From IMG/VR virus record IMGVR_UViG_3300015188_000046: DNA of 4,775 bases; one strand, written 5' to 3'. The stretch is from a virus. Its lineage: Duplodnaviria; Heunggongvirae; Uroviricota; Caudoviricetes. The notes under the pieces were generated by a model. That model was not told the origin of the DNA. It saw only the letters and a list, made by a program, of their open reading frames with translations, and did not search any database. Shown here piece after piece: positions 1 to 4,775 of the stretch. Each line of letters begins with the position of its first letter. Positions within the stretch are counted from its first letter, which is position 1. Made by a program: the position numbers and the translations under genes.

Positions 1-31
1 ACTGGAGTTCAGACGTGTGCTCTTCCGATCT
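1..31. other. Illumina TruSeq-type adapter sequence (technical artefact, not biological)
   Basis: Positions 1-31 read ACTGGAGTTCAGACGTGTGCTCTTCCGATCT, the 3' part of the TruSeq indexed-adapter / read-2 primer site. Identified from memory of the adapter sequence. Confidence 0.9.
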
Positions 32-55: not shown

Positions 56-226
56 ATGAACGAGCCTCGTTGTATTGCTCAGTTATTGCGTAACGAAAGC
101 CCAAGGGCGATTGACTTCACCATTACCCACGGTAAGGGGCGTAAGGGAATCATTATCCGCACCAAAAAACAGAGTCCGTTAAAGAAGGCTCTGACCTTTC
201 TGAAAAGCCGGAGGGTCTGGAAATGA
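56..226 (+). CDS. Small hypothetical protein, 5' end uncertain (possibly truncated by the insert boundary); sits where P2 has orf78, immediately upstream of B
   Basis: The frame is open from the adapter junction (32) to TGA 224-226. The first ATG is at 56, preceded by GGTGGA (47-52). The ORF-track start at 17 is a GTG inside the adapter and is not credible. The stop overlaps the next gene's start (ATGA at 223-226). Confidence 0.45.
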   Translation: MNEPRCIAQLLRNESPRAIDFTITHGKGRKGIIIRTKKQSPLKKALTFLKSRRVWK

Positions 227-723
227 CAGTGATGACGCTCAATCTTGTTGAAAAACAGCCAGCAGCTATGCGCCGGATAATTGGTAAGCATCTGGCCGTC
301 CCTCGCTGGCAGGATACATGCGATTATTATAATCAGATGATGGAACGTGAACGGCTAACGGTTTGCTTCCATGCGCAGTTAAAACAGCGTCACGCAACGA
401 TGCGTTTTGAAGAAATGAACGACGTCGAACGTGAACGACTGGTATGTGCAATTGATGAATTGCGTGGCGCATTCTCAAAACGCCGTCAGGTTGGCGCAAG
501 TGAGTATGCATATATTAGTTTTTTAACAGTCAGTCAGCGCCGTACTTTATTTATGCATGCCGGATTGACTGAAAAAGAATTTAACCAGCCATACTGGCGA
601 ATTAATGAAGAATCATGTTACTGGCGTGATGCTTTATTCCGTGCATTACGTGAATTATTCAGTCTGTTTGAGTATGCACCGACAATTCTGACGTCGGTAA
701 AACCAGAGCAATATCTGCATTAA
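223..723 (+). CDS. Probable P2 gene-B-type replication accessory protein (166 aa); assignment by size and operon position only
   Basis: 166-aa ORF whose ATG overlaps the upstream stop (ATGA), ending at TAA 721-723. It is the second gene of an operon that ends in a gpA-like initiator. I recall P2 B as 166 aa but could not align the sequence. Confidence 0.7.
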   Translation: MTVMTLNLVEKQPAAMRRIIGKHLAVPRWQDTCDYYNQMMERERLTVCFHAQLKQRHATMRFEEMNDVERERLVCAIDELRGAFSKRRQVGASEYAYISFLTVSQRRTLFMHAGLTEKEFNQPYWRINEESCYWRDALFRALRELFSLFEYAPTILTSVKPEQYLH

Positions 724-1538: not shown

Positions 1539-1810
1539 GCATTCGTATTGAAATTGGCGAACGTTATGTCGTTACCAGTGACAGCTTTCAGTTTATTCTC
1601 CACGAGAAAAAGAGAGCGGAAAGCGGTAAAAACGCCGGTCAGGAATGGCTGGCGGTGGTTGGTTATTACCCGAAATTAAGCCAGCTCGTTTCCGGCCTGA
1701 TGCATCACGATATTCTGACCGGAAGCGCAAAGTCTTTTGCTGATTTAAACGCACAGGTTGAGCAACTCAGCAGGCGTTGTTCAGAGGCTTTTGGCTCATA
1801 TGGCCGTTAA
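1535..1810 (+). CDS. Hypothetical protein (91 aa), directly upstream of and overlapping the replication initiator gene (P2 orf83 position)
   Basis: ATG 1535 with GGAG (1525-1528) six nt upstream; stop TAA 1808-1810. Overlaps the ATG-1800 start of the next gene by 11 nt. Confidence 0.75.
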   Translation: MSIRIEIGERYVVTSDSFQFILHEKKRAESGKNAGQEWLAVVGYYPKLSQLVSGLMHHDILTGSAKSFADLNAQVEQLSRRCSEAFGSYGR

Positions 1811-4088
1811 AGCCTCCGGGCGTTTTGTCCCTCCGTCAGCATTTGCCGCAGGCACCGGTAAGACGTTTACCGGTGCTTATGCATGGAACGCGCCACGCGA
1901 GGCTGTCGGGCGCGAAAGACCCCTTACACGTGACGAGATGCGTCAGGTGCAAGGTGTTTTATCCACGATTAACCGCCTGCCTTACTTTTTGCGCTCGCTG
2001 TTTACTTCACGTTATGACTACATCCGGCGCAATAAAAGCCCGGTGCACGGGTTTTATTTCCTCACATCCACTTTTCAGCGTCGTTTATGGCCGCGCATTG
2101 AGCGTGTGAATCAGCGCCATGAAATGAACACCGACGCGTCGTTGCTGTTTCTGGCAGAGCGTGACCACTATGCGCGCCTGCCGGGAATGAATGACAAGGA
2201 GCTGAAAAAGTTTGCTGCCCGTATCTCATCGCAGCTTTTCATGATGTATGAGGAACTCTGCGATGCCTGGGTTGATGCACATGGCGAAAAAGAATCGCTG
2301 TTTACGGATGAGGCGCAGGCTCACCTCTATGGTCATGTTGCTGGCGCTGCACGTGCTTTCAATATTTCCCCGCTCTACTGGAAAAAATACCGTAAAGGAC
2401 AGATGACCACGAGGCAGGCATATTCTGCCATTGCCCGTCTGTTTAACGATGAGTGGTGGACTCATCAGCTCAAAGGCCAGCGTATGCGCTGGCATGAGGC
2501 GTTACTGATTGCTGTCGGGGAGGTGAATAAAGACCGTTCTCCTTATGCCAGTAAACATGCCATTCGTGATGTACGTGCACGCCGCCAGGCAAATCTGGAA
2601 TTTCTTAAATCGTGTGACCTTGAAAACAGGGAAACCGGCGAGCGCATCGACCTTATCAGTAAGGTGATGGGCAGTATTTCTAATCCTGAAATTCGCCGGA
2701 TGGAGCTGATGAACACCATTGCCGGCATTGAGCGTTACGCCGCCGCAGAGGGTGATGTGGGGATGTTTATCACGCTGACCGCGCCGTCAAAGTATCACCC
2801 GACACGTCAAGTCGGAAAAGGCGAAAGTAAAACCGTTCAGCTTAATCACGGCTGGAACGATGAGGCATTTAATCCAAAGGATGCGCAGCGTTATCTCTGC
2901 CGCATCTGGAGCCTGATGCGCACGGCATTCAAGGATAATGATTTACAGGTCTACGGTTTGCGAGTCGTCGAGCCACACCACGACGGAACGCCGCACTGGC
3001 ATATGATGCTTTTTTGTAATCCACGCCAGCGTAACCAGATTATCGAAATCATGCGTCGCTATGCGCTCAAAGAGGATGGTGACGAAAGAGGAGCCGCGCG
3101 AAACCGTTTTCAGGCAAAGCACCTTAACCGGGGCGGTGCTGCGGGATATATCGCGAAATACATCTCAAAAAACATCGATGGCTATGCACTGGATGGTCAG
3201 CTCGATAACGATACCGGCAGGCCGCTGAAAGACACTGCTGCGGCTGTTACCGCATGGGCGTCAACGTGGCGCATCCCGCAATTTAAAACGGTTGGCCTGC
3301 CGACAATGGGAGCTTACCGTGAGCTACGTAAATTGCCTCGCGGCGTCAGCATTGCTGATGAATTTGACGAACGCGTGGAGGCTGCACGCGCCGCCGCAGA
3401 CAGTGGCGATTTTGCGCTTTATATCAGCGCGCAGGGTGGGGCAAATGTCCCGCGCGATTGTCAGACTGTCAGGGTCGCCCGTAGCCCGTCGGATGACGTT
3501 AACGAGTACGAGGAAGAAGTCGAGAGAGTGGTCGGCATTTACGCGCCGCATCTCGGCGCGCGTCATATTCATATCACCAGAACGACGGACTGGCGCATTG
3601 TTCCGAAAGTTCCGGTCGTTGAGCCTTTGACTTTAAAAAGCGGCATCGCCGCGCCTCGGAGTCCTGTCAATAACTGTGGAAAGCCTGCCAGCAGTGATGC
3701 TTCGTTACCGGCTCCCACACCTTCTGAACACGCCGCAGCAGTGCTTAATCTGGTAGATGACGGTGTTATCGAATGGAATGACCCGGAGGTTGTGAGGGCG
3801 CTCAGGGGGGCATTAAAACACGGACTGAGAAGACCAAATCGCCAGCAAAGAAACGGAAGCCCGTTAAAACCACATGAAATAGCGCCATCGGCCAGACTGA
3901 CCCGGTCGGAACGAATGCAAATTACCCGTATCCGCGTTGACCTTGCTCAGAACGGTATCAGGCCTCAGCGATGGGAGATTGAGGCGCTGGCGCGTGGGGC
4001 AACCGTAAATTATGACGGGAAAAAATTCACGTATATGGTTACTAATGAGTGGTTCGGATTTCGAGATGAAGAGTCATTTTTCATGTAA
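1800..4088 (+). CDS. A: Rolling-circle replication initiator endonuclease, P2 gpA family (HUH endonuclease), ~762 aa
   Basis: Long ORF ending TAA 4086-4088. HUH motif P-H-W-H-M-M-L-F (HWH codons at 2994-3002). Paired active-site tyrosines in G-Y-I-A-K-Y-I-S-K (Tyr codons 3147-3149 and 3159-3161), the same Y-x-x-K-Y arrangement as phiX174 gpA. Start placed at the first ATG (1800); the ORF-track start at 1758 is a TTG without a convincing SD. The length matches P2 A (~761 aa) as I recall it. Confidence 0.9.
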   Translation: MAVKASGRFVPPSAFAAGTGKTFTGAYAWNAPREAVGRERPLTRDEMRQVQGVLSTINRLPYFLRSLFTSRYDYIRRNKSPVHGFYFLTSTFQRRLWPRIERVNQRHEMNTDASLLFLAERDHYARLPGMNDKELKKFAARISSQLFMMYEELCDAWVDAHGEKESLFTDEAQAHLYGHVAGAARAFNISPLYWKKYRKGQMTTRQAYSAIARLFNDEWWTHQLKGQRMRWHEALLIAVGEVNKDRSPYASKHAIRDVRARRQANLEFLKSCDLENRETGERIDLISKVMGSISNPEIRRMELMNTIAGIERYAAAEGDVGMFITLTAPSKYHPTRQVGKGESKTVQLNHGWNDEAFNPKDAQRYLCRIWSLMRTAFKDNDLQVYGLRVVEPHHDGTPHWHMMLFCNPRQRNQIIEIMRRYALKEDGDERGAARNRFQAKHLNRGGAAGYIAKYISKNIDGYALDGQLDNDTGRPLKDTAAAVTAWASTWRIPQFKTVGLPTMGAYRELRKLPRGVSIADEFDERVEAARAAADSGDFALYISAQGGANVPRDCQTVRVARSPSDDVNEYEEEVERVVGIYAPHLGARHIHITRTTDWRIVPKVPVVEPLTLKSGIAAPRSPVNNCGKPASSDASLPAPTPSEHAAAVLNLVDDGVIEWNDPEVVRALRGALKHGLRRPNRQQRNGSPLKPHEIAPSARLTRSERMQITRIRVDLAQNGIRPQRWEIEALARGATVNYDGKKFTYMVTNEWFGFRDEESFFM
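3651..3670 (+). other. Candidate replication origin / gpA nick region inside the A coding sequence (tentative)
   Basis: Sequence GCGCCTCGGAGTCCTGTCAA lies about 81% into the A gene. In P2 the origin is inside the 3' part of gene A, and I recall (unverified) a nick-site sequence of this kind. No hairpin or iteron structure is visible here to support it independently. Confidence 0.25.
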
Positions 4089-4101
4089 AACACTTTAAAA
4101 T

Positions 4102-4143
4102 TCAATGCAATGAAGGCATATCCATGTTGCATTGATATGCCTT
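4102..4143 (+). terminator. Two overlapping, mutually exclusive inverted repeats immediately after the gpA stop; possible operon terminator or regulatory structure
   Basis: IR-A: TCAATGCAA (4102-4110) pairs with TTGCATTGA (4127-4135). IR-B: AAGGCATAT (4113-4121) pairs with ATATGCCTT (4135-4143). They are followed by AT-rich sequence, with a T-run (TTGTTTT) about 15 nt downstream. The stems are AT-rich and the U-tract is not canonical. Confidence 0.3.
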
Positions 4144-4358
4144 TAACTTATTATATATTTGTTTTATATGAAAAAATATCATATACAGGGGGAGCAAATA
4201 CAACGGTTTACTTGTTATGATGCAAACATTGGTTAGTTAGTGAGATATATCGCCATCAATTGGGTATTTTTACCCGTGGAAAGTTAACGCTTTCTAACAC
4301 TTACCCCGCGCAACGCCCCTGCCAGCGACAGGAGTCACAGGATCAGGAGGTATGGCGT

Positions 4359-4652
4359 ATGGGTATTCGAACCCTTTGGGCGACCAAGGGTTCGTGGAGC
4401 AGGGGGCTAGTGCTGTTCAATCTCATCCTTATGAGGGCGAACCATAGTGTTGGAGCAGACATACCGTTTGCACACTATGGGCATAAGGAGCAAATCATGA
4501 AGAATGATAAATTAACCAACGAACAGCAGGCGCAGAACAAGTCAAACCTGAAAAAGTGGGCTGGTTACGCTTGGAAATTAATCAAATGGGGTATTAGACT
4601 GTTTGATTTAGTTACTCGAGCACTGGACTACTTCGAAGGGGGGGATGAGTAA
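4359..4652 (+). CDS. Small hypothetical protein: 97 aa from ATG 4359, or 51 aa from in-frame ATG 4497; first ORF after gpA (P2 orf91 position)
   Basis: ATG 4359 has AGGAGG (4345-4350) eight nt upstream. In-frame ATG 4497 has AAGGAG (4485-4490) six nt upstream. Stop TAA 4650-4652. The ORF-track start at 4260 is a TTG with no SD. The C-terminal part is Trp/Lys-rich and amphipathic (KKWAGYAWKLIKWGIRLFDLV). Confidence 0.45.
   Translation: MGIRTLWATKGSWSRGLVLFNLILMRANHSVGADIPFAHYGHKEQIMKNDKLTNEQQAQNKSNLKKWAGYAWKLIKWGIRLFDLVTRALDYFEGGDE
4368..4480 (+). promoter_or_regulatory. Two strong RNA stem-loops (possible structured leader or regulatory RNA element) overlapping the 5' part of the 4359-4652 ORF
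   Basis: SL1: CGAACCCTTTGG (4368-4379) pairs with CCAAGGGTTCG (4384-4394), giving 11 bp with one bulged T, closed by a GCGA (GNRA-type) tetraloop. SL2: perfect 9-bp inverted repeat CCATAGTGT (4442-4450) / ACACTATGG (4472-4480) around a 21-nt loop. SL2 ends 4 nt before the AAGGAG SD of the 4497 start. Confidence 0.3.
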
Positions 4653-4688
4653 TGCGTCCTCCCTAGTTTCAATAGCATGGAGTTGCCT

Positions 4689-4758
4689 ATGTTACATAAA
4701 GCCCTTCGTTTAATAAGGCAATACCATAAAGAATCAATAGTTGAGTTATCTTCATCTT
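4689..4758 (+). CDS. 5' fragment of an unknown gene that continues beyond the insert end (first ~23 codons only)
   Basis: ATG 4689 with GGAG (4679-4682) six nt upstream; an alternative in-frame ATG at 4677 has no SD. The frame stays open to the adapter junction (the apparent TAG at 4758-4760 is created by the adapter). The fragment is AT-rich, about 32% GC by eye. Confidence 0.3.
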
Positions 4759-4775
4759 AGATCGGAAGAGCGTCG
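4759..4775. other. Illumina adapter read-through (technical artefact)
   Basis: AGATCGGAAGAGCGTCG is the start of the TruSeq universal adapter read-through sequence. Confidence 0.9.

What the first reader, a model, noticed from the sequence alone, without database searches (positions are those of the whole stretch)
4689..4758. Truncated AT-rich gene running off the insert end
A gene with a reasonable SD (GGAG) starts at 4689 and is still open at the adapter junction. Its GC content (~32% by eye) is far below the ~50% of the replication operon, which is typical of horizontally acquired cargo. It is likely the first larger gene of the accessory locus.
Basis: seen in the sequence. Interest (0 to 1): 0.45.

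Follow-up and report, generated by a model that had tools for sequence, protein, structure and literature searches.

The report
Retron Type VI regulator gene, truncated
The cut-off AT-rich gene is the first 23 codons of a small helix-turn-helix protein that keeps the toxin of an already catalogued anti-phage "Type VI retron" in check; the retron rides as cargo in a P2-like prophage of E. coli, so the finding is real but ordinary.

Summary
An ATG at 4689 follows a GGAG (4679-4682). The frame stays open to the Illumina adapter junction at 4758/4759, and GC is 30% against 50-53% for the P2 replication operon.

Identical E. coli chromosomes show the complete gene. It encodes a 102-aa Cro/C1-type HTH protein (WP_001310277.1) whose 3' end overlaps a 316-aa reverse transcriptase by 23 nt.

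PADLOC assigns the two proteins to HTH_VI (6.7e-31) and RT_VI (4e-105). The RT accession is already a leaf of a published Type VI retron tree, in the "Large" lineage that contains Retron-Vpa2.

Immediately upstream, inside the window, is the rest of the system. It is a conserved structured "hybrid RNA" (about 4250-4674) that contains a 51-aa toxin ORF (4497-4652) whose ribosome-binding site is paired.

So the gene is not the first or the large gene of the accessory locus. It is the small negative regulator or antitoxin of a known abortive-infection system, sitting in the known gpA-gpQ defence hotspot of P2-like phages.

Two preprints (2025, 2026) describe how such systems work. Novelty: already known. 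Interest: low.

The parts
4689..4758 (+). First 23 codons (of 102) of the Type VI retron HTH gene (Cro/C1-type helix-turn-helix; negative regulator or antitoxin). Encodes helix 1 and most of helix 2, including the nearly invariant Arg7 (invariant in the 12 loci).
   Evidence: RefSeq CDS WP_001310277.1 starts at this ATG; PADLOC HTH_VI, 6.7e-31; conservation, third-position changes; five-helix XRE fold plus a long C-terminal helix.
4679..4682 (+). Shine-Dalgarno GGAG of the HTH gene, 6 nt before the ATG.
   Evidence: A purine-rich GGAG/GGTG/GGAA is kept at this place in 10 of the 12 homologous loci (all but the V. crassostreae and V. anguillarum loci, L014 and L015).
4497..4652 (+). SP: 51-aa small-protein ORF, the presumed toxic effector of the retron. 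Lysine-rich polar N-terminus, hydrophobic/amphipathic C-terminal helix, conserved FEGGDE end.
   Evidence: Annotated as WP_001302990.1. A 50-51-aa ORF sits at the same place in all 12 loci. Role taken from Retron-Vpa2 and Retron-Sen3.
4250..4674 (+). Hybrid RNA (hyRNA): structured noncoding part plus the embedded SP coding sequence. Approximate ends, taken from conservation.
   Evidence: MFE z-score -4.5. In the alignment of 12 loci, 94.5% of cells are paired against 38-46% when partners are slid; 32 pairs have compensatory changes against 7-16. No Rfam family matches.
4261..4295 (+). Two conserved 5' stem-loops of the hyRNA (4261-4276 and 4278-4295).
   Evidence: helices 1 and 2: 100% paired, with compensatory changes at 3 and 1 pairs.
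4302..4365 (+). Long stem whose base is conserved while its apex varies in length and sequence. Candidate reverse-transcription template (msd-like) region.
   Evidence: helices 3-5. The msd assignment is an inference by analogy.
4368..4394 (+). Perfect 9-bp hairpin whose loop, TGGGCGACC, is conserved. The loop motif GGGCGAC (4378-4384) is repeated as GGGCGAA at 4435-4441.
   Evidence: (I9). This fits the conserved 7-nt direct repeats that Zhang et al. propose as msDNA-riboregulator contact. That they are the same repeats is inferred.
4426..4490 (+). Riboregulator arm: TCCTTATG (4426-4433) pairs with CATAAGGA (4482-4489), sequestering the SP ribosome-binding site AAGGAG (4485-4490).
   Evidence: helix 9 (98.9% paired, 3 pairs with compensatory changes), with inner helices 10-11.
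4395..4406 (+). 5' arm of the long-range closing helix (TGGAGCAGGGGG). It pairs with 4659-4671, just after the SP stop codon.
   Evidence: helix 7: 98.5% paired in 12 loci.
4659..4671 (+). 3' arm of the long-range closing helix (CCTCCCTAGTTTCA region). The conserved RNA ends 8 nt before the HTH Shine-Dalgarno sequence.
   Evidence: This intergenic stretch is almost invariant from E. coli to Vibrio.
4132..4159 (+). Promoter-like site TTGATA-16-TATATT in the 30%-GC spacer after gpA. Possible retron promoter, not established.
   Evidence: 10 of 12 matches, but 1 site found against 2.0 expected by chance, so weak evidence.
1800..4088 (+). P2 gpA replication endonuclease. This is context: it forms the left border of the gpA-gpQ cargo hotspot.
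   Evidence: RefSeq 'replication endonuclease'; Pfam Phage_GPA in related loci; hotspot defined in PMC9122126.

Best explanation
The fragment is the 5' end of the HTH gene of a Type VI retron. The retron is organised as structured hybrid RNA with an embedded small toxin ORF, then HTH, then reverse transcriptase. It is carried as cargo in the gpA-gpQ hotspot of a P2-like (Peduovirus) prophage of E. coli.

The 102-aa protein has a five-helix Cro/C1 (XRE) domain followed by a long C-terminal helix.

Most likely mechanism, by analogy with Retron-Vpa2, which belongs to the same 'Large' RT lineage:
[quoted passage not shown] - An infecting phage brings recombination proteins or RecBCD inhibition (for example lambda Red), and msDNA accumulates.
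- The toxin is then translated and the cell aborts the infection, which protects the lysogen population and the P2 prophage from competing phages.

Shown here: gene identity, operon architecture, family assignment, conserved RNA structure with the SP ribosome-binding site paired, fold of the protein, hotspot location.

Inferred from the literature: complex formation, repression of the RT, triggers, toxicity.
For: - Full gene and neighbours in 100%-identical chromosomes: SP 51 aa, HTH 102 aa, RT 316 aa with a 23-nt overlap, lying between gpA and the portal gene.
- PADLOC HTH_VI 6.7e-31 and RT_VI 4.1e-105; the next-best RT model scores 5e-45.
- The RT carries the NAxxH, YVDD and VTG motifs.
- The RT accession WP_000746343.1 is the leaf 'Large_WP_000746343.1' in the published Type VI RT tree. 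Vpa2 lies in the same lineage.
- The same SP-HTH-RT module is found in 12 further loci.
- Arg7, encoded inside the window, is invariant in the 12 loci and nearly invariant among 56 homologues. The HTH R7D mutation is toxic in Vpa2.
- hyRNA structure with covariation and a paired SP ribosome-binding site, as described for Vpa2.
- Model of an 89%-identical homologue (P0001): mean pLDDT 81; residues 1-65 superpose on SinR/DdrO HTH domains at about 1.1 A; a C-terminal helix spans 75-100.
- An E. coli Type VI retron (Eco12) protected against lambda-vir without detectable basal msDNA.
- Retrons are known cargo of this P2 hotspot.
Against: - No experiment exists on this exact sequence as far as I could establish. 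Whether it is Retron-Eco12 could not be checked, because no sequence or accession for Eco12 is in the texts held.
- Within Type VI, two different control modes have been reported: Vpa2 is translational and msDNA-dependent, Sen3 is post-translational with HTH binding SP directly. The detailed role of this HTH therefore rests on lineage membership only.
- Pfam HTH models score below their gathering thresholds (18 bits against 23-30). DNA binding by this protein has not been shown for any Type VI retron.
Confidence: 0.8

Rival explanations
1. Same gene and same retron, but Sen3-type control. The toxin SP is made constitutively. The HTH protein neutralises it directly, protein to protein, through its C-terminal helix and independently of RT and RNA. 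Inhibition of RecBCD by the phage releases the toxin.
For: - Retron-Sen3 works this way. There, HTH is essential for viability and suppresses SP without RT or ncRNA, with helix alpha-6 (residues 76-91) predicted as the interface.
- The protein here has a comparable long C-terminal helix (75-100). Its fold resembles SinR, whose C-terminal helices bind the antagonist SinI.
Against: - The RT belongs to the 'Large' lineage with Vpa2, not to cl2075.
- SP here is 51 aa, like the short Vpa2-type SP. It lacks the amphipathic C-terminal extension of the 79-aa Sen3 SP that forms the HTH interface.
- The SP ribosome-binding site is paired in a covarying helix.
- The E. coli Type VI retron that was tested made no detectable basal msDNA.
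Confidence: 0.3
2. The protein is mainly a conventional XRE-family DNA-binding repressor. It would be, for example, an autoregulator of the cargo promoter or a regulator tied to P2 lysogeny, and its link to the RT would be only transcriptional.
For: - Canonical five-helix Cro/C1 fold, closest to the DNA-binding repressors SinR, DdrO, C.BclI and P22 c2.
- Weak hits to HTH_3/HTH_19/HTH_31 and to the RstR phage repressor family.
- Mestre et al. 2020 originally proposed transcriptional regulation.
Against: - In both studied Type VI retrons the HTH protein co-purifies with the RT, and in Vpa2 also with the hyRNA.
- The gene overlaps the RT gene and co-varies with it in every locus, whatever the surrounding element: P2, a T4SS island, or a Vibrio island.
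- No operator-like palindrome near the promoter-like site was found to be conserved. The repeats at 4102-4143 lie before it and look like the end of the gpA operon.
Confidence: 0.1
3. The open frame is a chance ORF in AT-rich spacer DNA, or an artefact of the library adapter, and not a gene.
For: A 23-codon open stretch at this composition has P about 0.17 by chance. The window ends in adapter sequence.
Against: - The frame continues to 102 aa in identical genomes.
- There is a strong profile match.
- 83 homologues were found.
- Substitutions are mostly at third codon positions.
Confidence: 0.01

Closest known systems
Retron-Vpa2 (Type VI retron of Vibrio parahaemolyticus; Zhang et al., bioRxiv 10.1101/2025.10.22.683967)
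   Same: - Same operon order: hyRNA with embedded short SP, then HTH, then RT.
- Same 'Large' RT lineage.
- HTH Arg7 and SP Lys15 are conserved.
- The SP ribosome-binding site lies in a stem, the 3' end of the RNA folds back onto the centre, and a conserved direct repeat sits in two loops.
   Different: - Different host and carrier: a P2-like prophage hotspot in E. coli.
- The RT motif is YVDD here against YADD reported for Vpa2.
- SP is 51 aa against 55.
- A V. parahaemolyticus homologue fetched here (L012) has only 47% HTH and 55% RT identity. It is probably not Vpa2 itself, since its residues at SP positions 39, 43 and 45 do not match those mutated in the paper.
Retron-Eco12 (E. coli Type VI retron tested in the same preprint)
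   Same: E. coli origin, Type VI, full operon with a native promoter, protection against lambda-vir, no detectable basal msDNA. This window may be that retron or a close relative.
   Different: Identity could not be tested. Neither the preprint text nor its supplements give a sequence or accession. Several distinct E. coli-type RT leaves exist in the published tree, and E. coli genomes hold variants down to under 90% DNA identity.
Retron-Sen3 (Type VI, cl2075 lineage, Salmonella enterica; Garcia-Rodriguez et al., bioRxiv 10.64898/2026.04.27.721009)
   Same: - SP-HTH-RT order, with the HTH overlapping the RT.
- The SP coding sequence is embedded in a conserved RNA with a long-range helix closing after the SP stop codon.
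- The HTH acts as the negative regulator.
   Different: - Different RT subclade (cl2075 against 'Large').
- A 79-aa SP with a C-terminal extension.
- Constitutive ssDNA and constitutive SP, with post-translational control.
SinR/SinI and other XRE-family repressors with a C-terminal partner-binding helix
   Same: Five-helix HTH domain (RMSD about 1.1 A over 60 residues) followed by a helical tail.
   Different: Sequence identity is only 19-33%. There is no evidence here of DNA binding. The known partners in Type VI retrons are an RT and an RNA.
P2 old/tin locus and other cargo of the gpA-gpQ hotspot (Rousset et al. 2022, PMC9122126)
   Same: Same position between the replication gene and the portal gene, the same logic of a prophage excluding competing phages, and retrons listed among the cargo.
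   Different: The gene content is unrelated to old/tin.

Membership tests
Type VI retron (Mestre et al. 2020 classification) | Reverse transcriptase belonging to the Type VI group of retron RT clade 3 | tested here: met
   PADLOC RT_VI: 4.1e-105, 349 bits, profile positions 1-278 of 279; the next model, RT_III-A, scores 152 bits. The accession WP_000746343.1 is a Type VI 'Large' leaf in the published tree. The RT lies outside the window, in genomes 100% identical over the last 669 nt (4090-4758).
Type VI retron (Mestre et al. 2020 classification) | Retron-type RT signatures: NAxxH, catalytic YxDD, VTG | tested here: met
   NAKAH at residue 107, YVDD at 198, VTG at 244.
Type VI retron (Mestre et al. 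2020 classification) | Small (91-110 aa) Cro/C1-type HTH protein (cluster 2_1) upstream of or overlapping the RT gene | tested here: met
   102 aa with a 23-nt overlap with the RT. PADLOC HTH_VI 6.7e-31. XRE fold in the model. Definition taken.
Type VI retron (Mestre et al. 2020 classification) | Small accessory protein (SP) gene directly upstream of the HTH gene | tested here: met
   51-aa ORF at 4497-4652, conserved in position and sequence in 12 loci. It is not one of the four named SP clusters; the 'Large' lineage is defined by that.
Type VI retron (Mestre et al. 2020 classification) | Structured ncRNA/hyRNA upstream of and spanning SP, with the SP ribosome-binding site in a stem and a long-range helix closing after the SP stop codon | tested here: met
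   94.5% of cells paired against 38-46% in slid controls; 32 pairs with compensatory changes; helices 7 and 9. Features as described. The alignment has only 12 sequences, and the structure was derived from it.
Type VI retron (Mestre et al. 2020 classification) | RT-dependent msDNA/ssDNA synthesis from the ncRNA | not testable with these tools
   Needs PAGE or sequencing of nucleic acids from cells that carry the operon.
Type VI retron (Mestre et al. 2020 classification) | Anti-phage abortive infection, with SP as the toxin and HTH as the negative regulator | not testable with these tools
   Shown for Vpa2, Sen3 and (defence only) Eco12, not for this sequence.
Cargo of the P2-like gpA-gpQ defence hotspot | [quoted passage not shown] | tested here: met
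   Gene order in L001 and L002. Present in 100 of the 1727 genomes that carry the early operon. Hotspot definition.
XRE / Cro-C1 family transcription factors | Sequence match to Pfam HTH_3/HTH_19/HTH_31 above the gathering threshold | tested here: not met
   18-18.7 bits against cut-offs of 23-30. Homologues in Vibrio and metagenomes do carry precomputed PF01381/PF12844 hits.
XRE / Cro-C1 family transcription factors | Five-helix HTH fold | tested here: met
   Model of the 89%-identical P0001: pLDDT 88-95 over residues 1-60; superposes on SinR, DdrO, C.BclI and P22 c2 at 1.0-1.3 A.
XRE / Cro-C1 family transcription factors | Sequence-specific operator DNA binding | not testable with these tools
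   No conserved operator was identified. Needs EMSA or ChIP.

The most novel reading that the evidence does not exclude
In this P2-borne lineage the conserved hyRNA ends only 8 nt before the HTH Shine-Dalgarno sequence. Translation of the regulator itself could therefore be coupled to the conformation of the hyRNA or to its consumption by the RT. That would give a feedback loop between reverse transcription and the level of its own inhibitor. Alternatively, the HTH might also bind DNA and tie retron activity to the P2 lysogenic state. Neither has been described for Type VI retrons.
Probability: 0.08. Interest if true: 0.4.

Novelty: already known. Interest (0 to 1): 0.15.

Why it matters
As a discovery it matters little. 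The protein is in RefSeq, the system is recognised by a standard defence finder, its RT is in the 2020 retron catalogue, and the mechanism of the family has been described in two recent preprints.

It is useful as annotation. It shows that the 3' 670 nt of this window are a coherent unit, made of the hyRNA, the toxin ORF and the start of the regulator, and not a spacer plus an orphan ORF. It also shows that this P2-like prophage carries an abortive-infection retron in its cargo hotspot.

For retron biology, the 12-locus alignment gives independent covariation support for the Vpa2-type hyRNA fold in the enterobacterial P2-borne branch.

Tried and rejected
- Rfam scan of the whole window at E <= 1 found nothing. 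The hyRNA is not a curated family.
- The genome-contig scan with the RT returned only two distant loci, Acinetobacter and Flavobacterium. I collected related DNA through exact-protein look-ups of HTH homologues instead.
- I tried to decide whether this is Retron-Eco12. The preprint and its supplements give no sequence or accession, and no other paper mentions it.
- I tried to recognise Retron-Vpa2 among the Vibrio loci using the residues mutated in the paper (SP K15, I39, F43, F45; RT YADD). L012, L014, L015 and L016 do not fit all of them, so no fetched locus can be equated with Vpa2.
- The promoter/terminator scan gave one promoter-like site, fewer than expected by chance, and no terminator call. 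The transcription start is left open.
- A long inverted repeat between 4105-4126 and 4676-4697 (73% complementary) was considered as a possible pairing that covers the HTH start. I dropped it because the 5' arm lies in the gpA-proximal hairpin and is absent from non-P2 loci.
- The predicted pairing of CGCC (4251-4254) with the GGCG of the hairpin loop conflicts with the perfect hairpin, so I left it out of the tested structure.
- The upstream ATG at 4677 (a 106-aa version) was rejected as the start. It is not conserved and has no Shine-Dalgarno sequence.

Full report
**What the window is**

Bases 1-31 and 4759-4775 are Illumina adapter sequence. The insert between them is the early (replication) operon of a P2-like prophage. 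It ends with the replication endonuclease gpA at 1800-4088. The whole insert is 97-98% identical to many E. coli chromosomes. Its last 669 nt are 100% identical to E. coli LWY24 and 99.7% identical to a group of O157:H7 strains.

**Check of the observation**

- ATG lies at 4689, and GGAG at 4679-4682 lies six bases upstream.
- The frame reads MLHKALRLIRQYHKESIVELSSS and runs to the adapter junction.
- The TAG at 4758-4760 is made by the adapter. The genome has TTA there.
- GC of the 70 nt is 30.0%. The replication operon is 49.8% and gpA is 53.1%.
- A 23-codon open frame at this composition has a chance probability of about 0.17, so the observation alone proves little.

Three independent results show that the gene is real:

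- RefSeq annotates a 102-aa CDS (WP_001310277.1) starting at this ATG.
- The N-terminus is nearly invariant across 12 loci from Citrobacter, Enterobacter, Yersinia, Serratia, Acerihabitans and four Vibrio species. Across these 23 codons, nucleotide differences fall mostly on third codon positions and least on second positions, and the invariant N-terminal codons differ only synonymously. The upstream ATG at 4677 is not conserved.
- A database search returned 83 homologues.

**What it is**

In the identical genomes the gene's last 23 nt overlap a 316-aa reverse transcriptase gene. A 51-aa ORF (window 4497-4652) lies 36 nt upstream of the gene.

- PADLOC assigns the two larger proteins to HTH_VI (6.7e-31, full-length match) and RT_VI (4.1e-105, 349 bits against 152 for the next model).
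- The RT has the NAxxH, YVDD and VTG motifs.
- Pfam gives only sub-threshold HTH hits and a marginal RVT_1 hit. NCBIfam gives sub-threshold retron RT hits.
- The RT accession WP_000746343.1 appears as 'Large_WP_000746343.1' in the Newick tree of Type VI retron RTs published by the Toro laboratory. The system is therefore already in the retron catalogue, in the lineage that also holds Retron-Vpa2.

Mestre et al. 2020 defined Type VI by a clade-3 RT associated with a 91-110-aa Cro/C1-type HTH protein and a small accessory protein. All three are present here.

**The rest of the system is inside the window**

The stretch from about 4250 to 4674 is GC-rich (52%), in contrast with the 30%-GC spacer before it. 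It folds far better than shuffled sequence (z = -4.5).

I aligned it with 11 homologous loci and derived a consensus structure. In that structure 94.5% of cells are paired, against 38-46% when partners are slid by one to three columns. There are 32 pairs with compensatory changes, against 7-16 in the slid controls.

The main elements are:

- Two 5' stem-loops (4261-4276 and 4278-4295).
- A long stem whose base is conserved and whose apex varies (4302-4365).
- A perfect hairpin (4368-4394) with a conserved loop.
- A helix pairing TCCTTATG (4426-4433) with CATAAGGA (4482-4489), which covers the SP ribosome-binding site AAGGAG.
- A helix between 4411-4418 and SP codons 8-11 (4521-4528).
- A long-range helix between 4395-4406 and 4659-4671, just after the SP stop codon.

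This matches the 'hybrid RNA' described for Retron-Vpa2: three arms, the SP ribosome-binding site and start codon in stems, and a 3' end that anneals back. It also matches the extended transcript of Retron-Sen3.

A motif, GGGCGA(C/A), occurs in the loop of the hairpin and again next to the helix that covers the ribosome-binding site. It fits the conserved 7-nt direct repeats that Zhang et al. propose as the contact between msDNA and riboregulator. That equation is my inference.

No Rfam family covers this RNA.

**The protein**

I predicted the structure of an 89%-identical homologue (P0001) from a 56-sequence alignment, because the exact protein could not be submitted.

- Mean pLDDT is 81, and above 88 for residues 1-60.
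- The model shows five helices forming an XRE-type HTH domain, followed by a long helix at residues 75-100.
- The domain superposes on SinR, DdrO, C.BclI and P22 c2 at about 1.0-1.3 A.
- The window encodes helix 1 and most of helix 2, including Arg7. Arg7 is invariant in the 12 loci and nearly invariant among 56 homologues. Its replacement (R7D) makes Retron-Vpa2 toxic.

**How it most likely works**

Two preprints give the framework.

In Retron-Vpa2:

- msDNA is undetectable until phage infection, expression of phage recombination genes, or mutation of HTH.

In Retron-Sen3 (cl2075 lineage):

- ssDNA and SP are made constitutively.
- HTH neutralises SP directly and is essential for viability.
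- RecBCD inhibition triggers the system.

The Vpa2 mode is more likely here, for four reasons:

- The RT is in the 'Large' lineage.
- The SP is short (51 aa) and lacks the Sen3-type C-terminal extension.
- The SP ribosome-binding site is paired in a covarying helix.
- An E. coli Type VI retron (Eco12) defended against lambda-vir without basal msDNA.

I put roughly 0.6 on the Vpa2 mode and 0.3 on the Sen3 mode, given the identity of the gene, which I hold at about 0.97. A purely transcriptional role for the HTH is a minor rival.

**Context**

The locus lies between gpA and the portal gene gpQ. This is the P2 hotspot, known to hold old/tin in P2 itself and many defence systems, retrons included, in other P2-like prophages.

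- The early operon occurs in 1727 of 5426 complete E. coli genomes. This cargo occurs in 100 of them.
- Nine phage records carry it: Peduovirus P22H1 and Klebsiella phages.
- The same module also occurs away from P2: next to type IV secretion genes in Acerihabitans, next to a resolvase in Vibrio, and in Acinetobacter. This fits independent horizontal movement.

**Verdict**

It is wrong on the gene's place in the locus: it is a small regulator that comes after the RNA and the toxin ORF, and the large gene is the RT that follows it.

The system is already known and catalogued, and its family mechanism has been published as preprints. Interest is low. The only open points are whether this is Retron-Eco12 itself and which of the two reported control modes it uses.

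Noticed in passing
window 1-31 and 4759-4775: Illumina TruSeq adapter sequence sits at both ends, so the window is a single library insert. The 3' junction creates an artificial in-frame TAG at 4758-4760 where the genome has TTA.
   Followed up: yes
window 4102-4143: Nested inverted repeats (TCAATGCAA/TTGCATTGA and AAGGCATATCCATG/CATTGATATGCCTT) lie 14 nt after the gpA stop codon and are followed by a T-rich run. This is probably the end of the P2 early transcript. The terminator scan did not call it.
   Followed up: partly
window 4378-4384 and 4435-4441: The direct repeat GGGCGAC / GGGCGAA sits in two loop regions of the hyRNA and is conserved from E. coli to Vibrio. It may be the msDNA-riboregulator contact proposed for Retron-Vpa2.
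   Followed up: partly
window 4411-4418 with 4521-4528: SP codons 8-11 (N-E-Q-Q, GAACAGCA) pair with an upstream segment in a fully conserved helix with two compensatory changes. The stretch is therefore under both coding and RNA-structure constraint.
   Followed up: partly
window 4229-4260: The block TTGGTTAGTTAGTGAGATATATCGCCATCAA upstream of the first stem-loop is highly conserved among enterobacterial loci and partly in Vibrio. Its role (promoter, transcription start or RNA 5' end) is unknown. RNAalifold proposed pairing of its CGCC with the GGCG of the hairpin loop.
   Followed up: no
L001 4251-5181 (downstream of the RT, outside the window): Three small ORFs of unknown function (145, 64 and 89 aa) lie between the retron and the portal gene. 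None hits Pfam, NCBIfam or PADLOC. Other loci have different genes there: an FRG-domain protein in L006, a 266-aa unknown in L008, and a DinI-like gene before the retron in L005.
   Followed up: partly
window 223-723: A 166-aa ORF is annotated only as hypothetical in RefSeq. Its size and its position in the operon match P2 gene B (the helicase-loader gene); this is from my own knowledge of P2 and was not tested.
   Followed up: no
L013, L012, L016, L003: The same SP-HTH-RT module occurs outside P2 phages: beside VirB8/CagX genes in Acerihabitans, beside a resolvase in two Vibrio species, and in Acinetobacter chengduensis. The module therefore moves independently of its carrier.
   Followed up: partly
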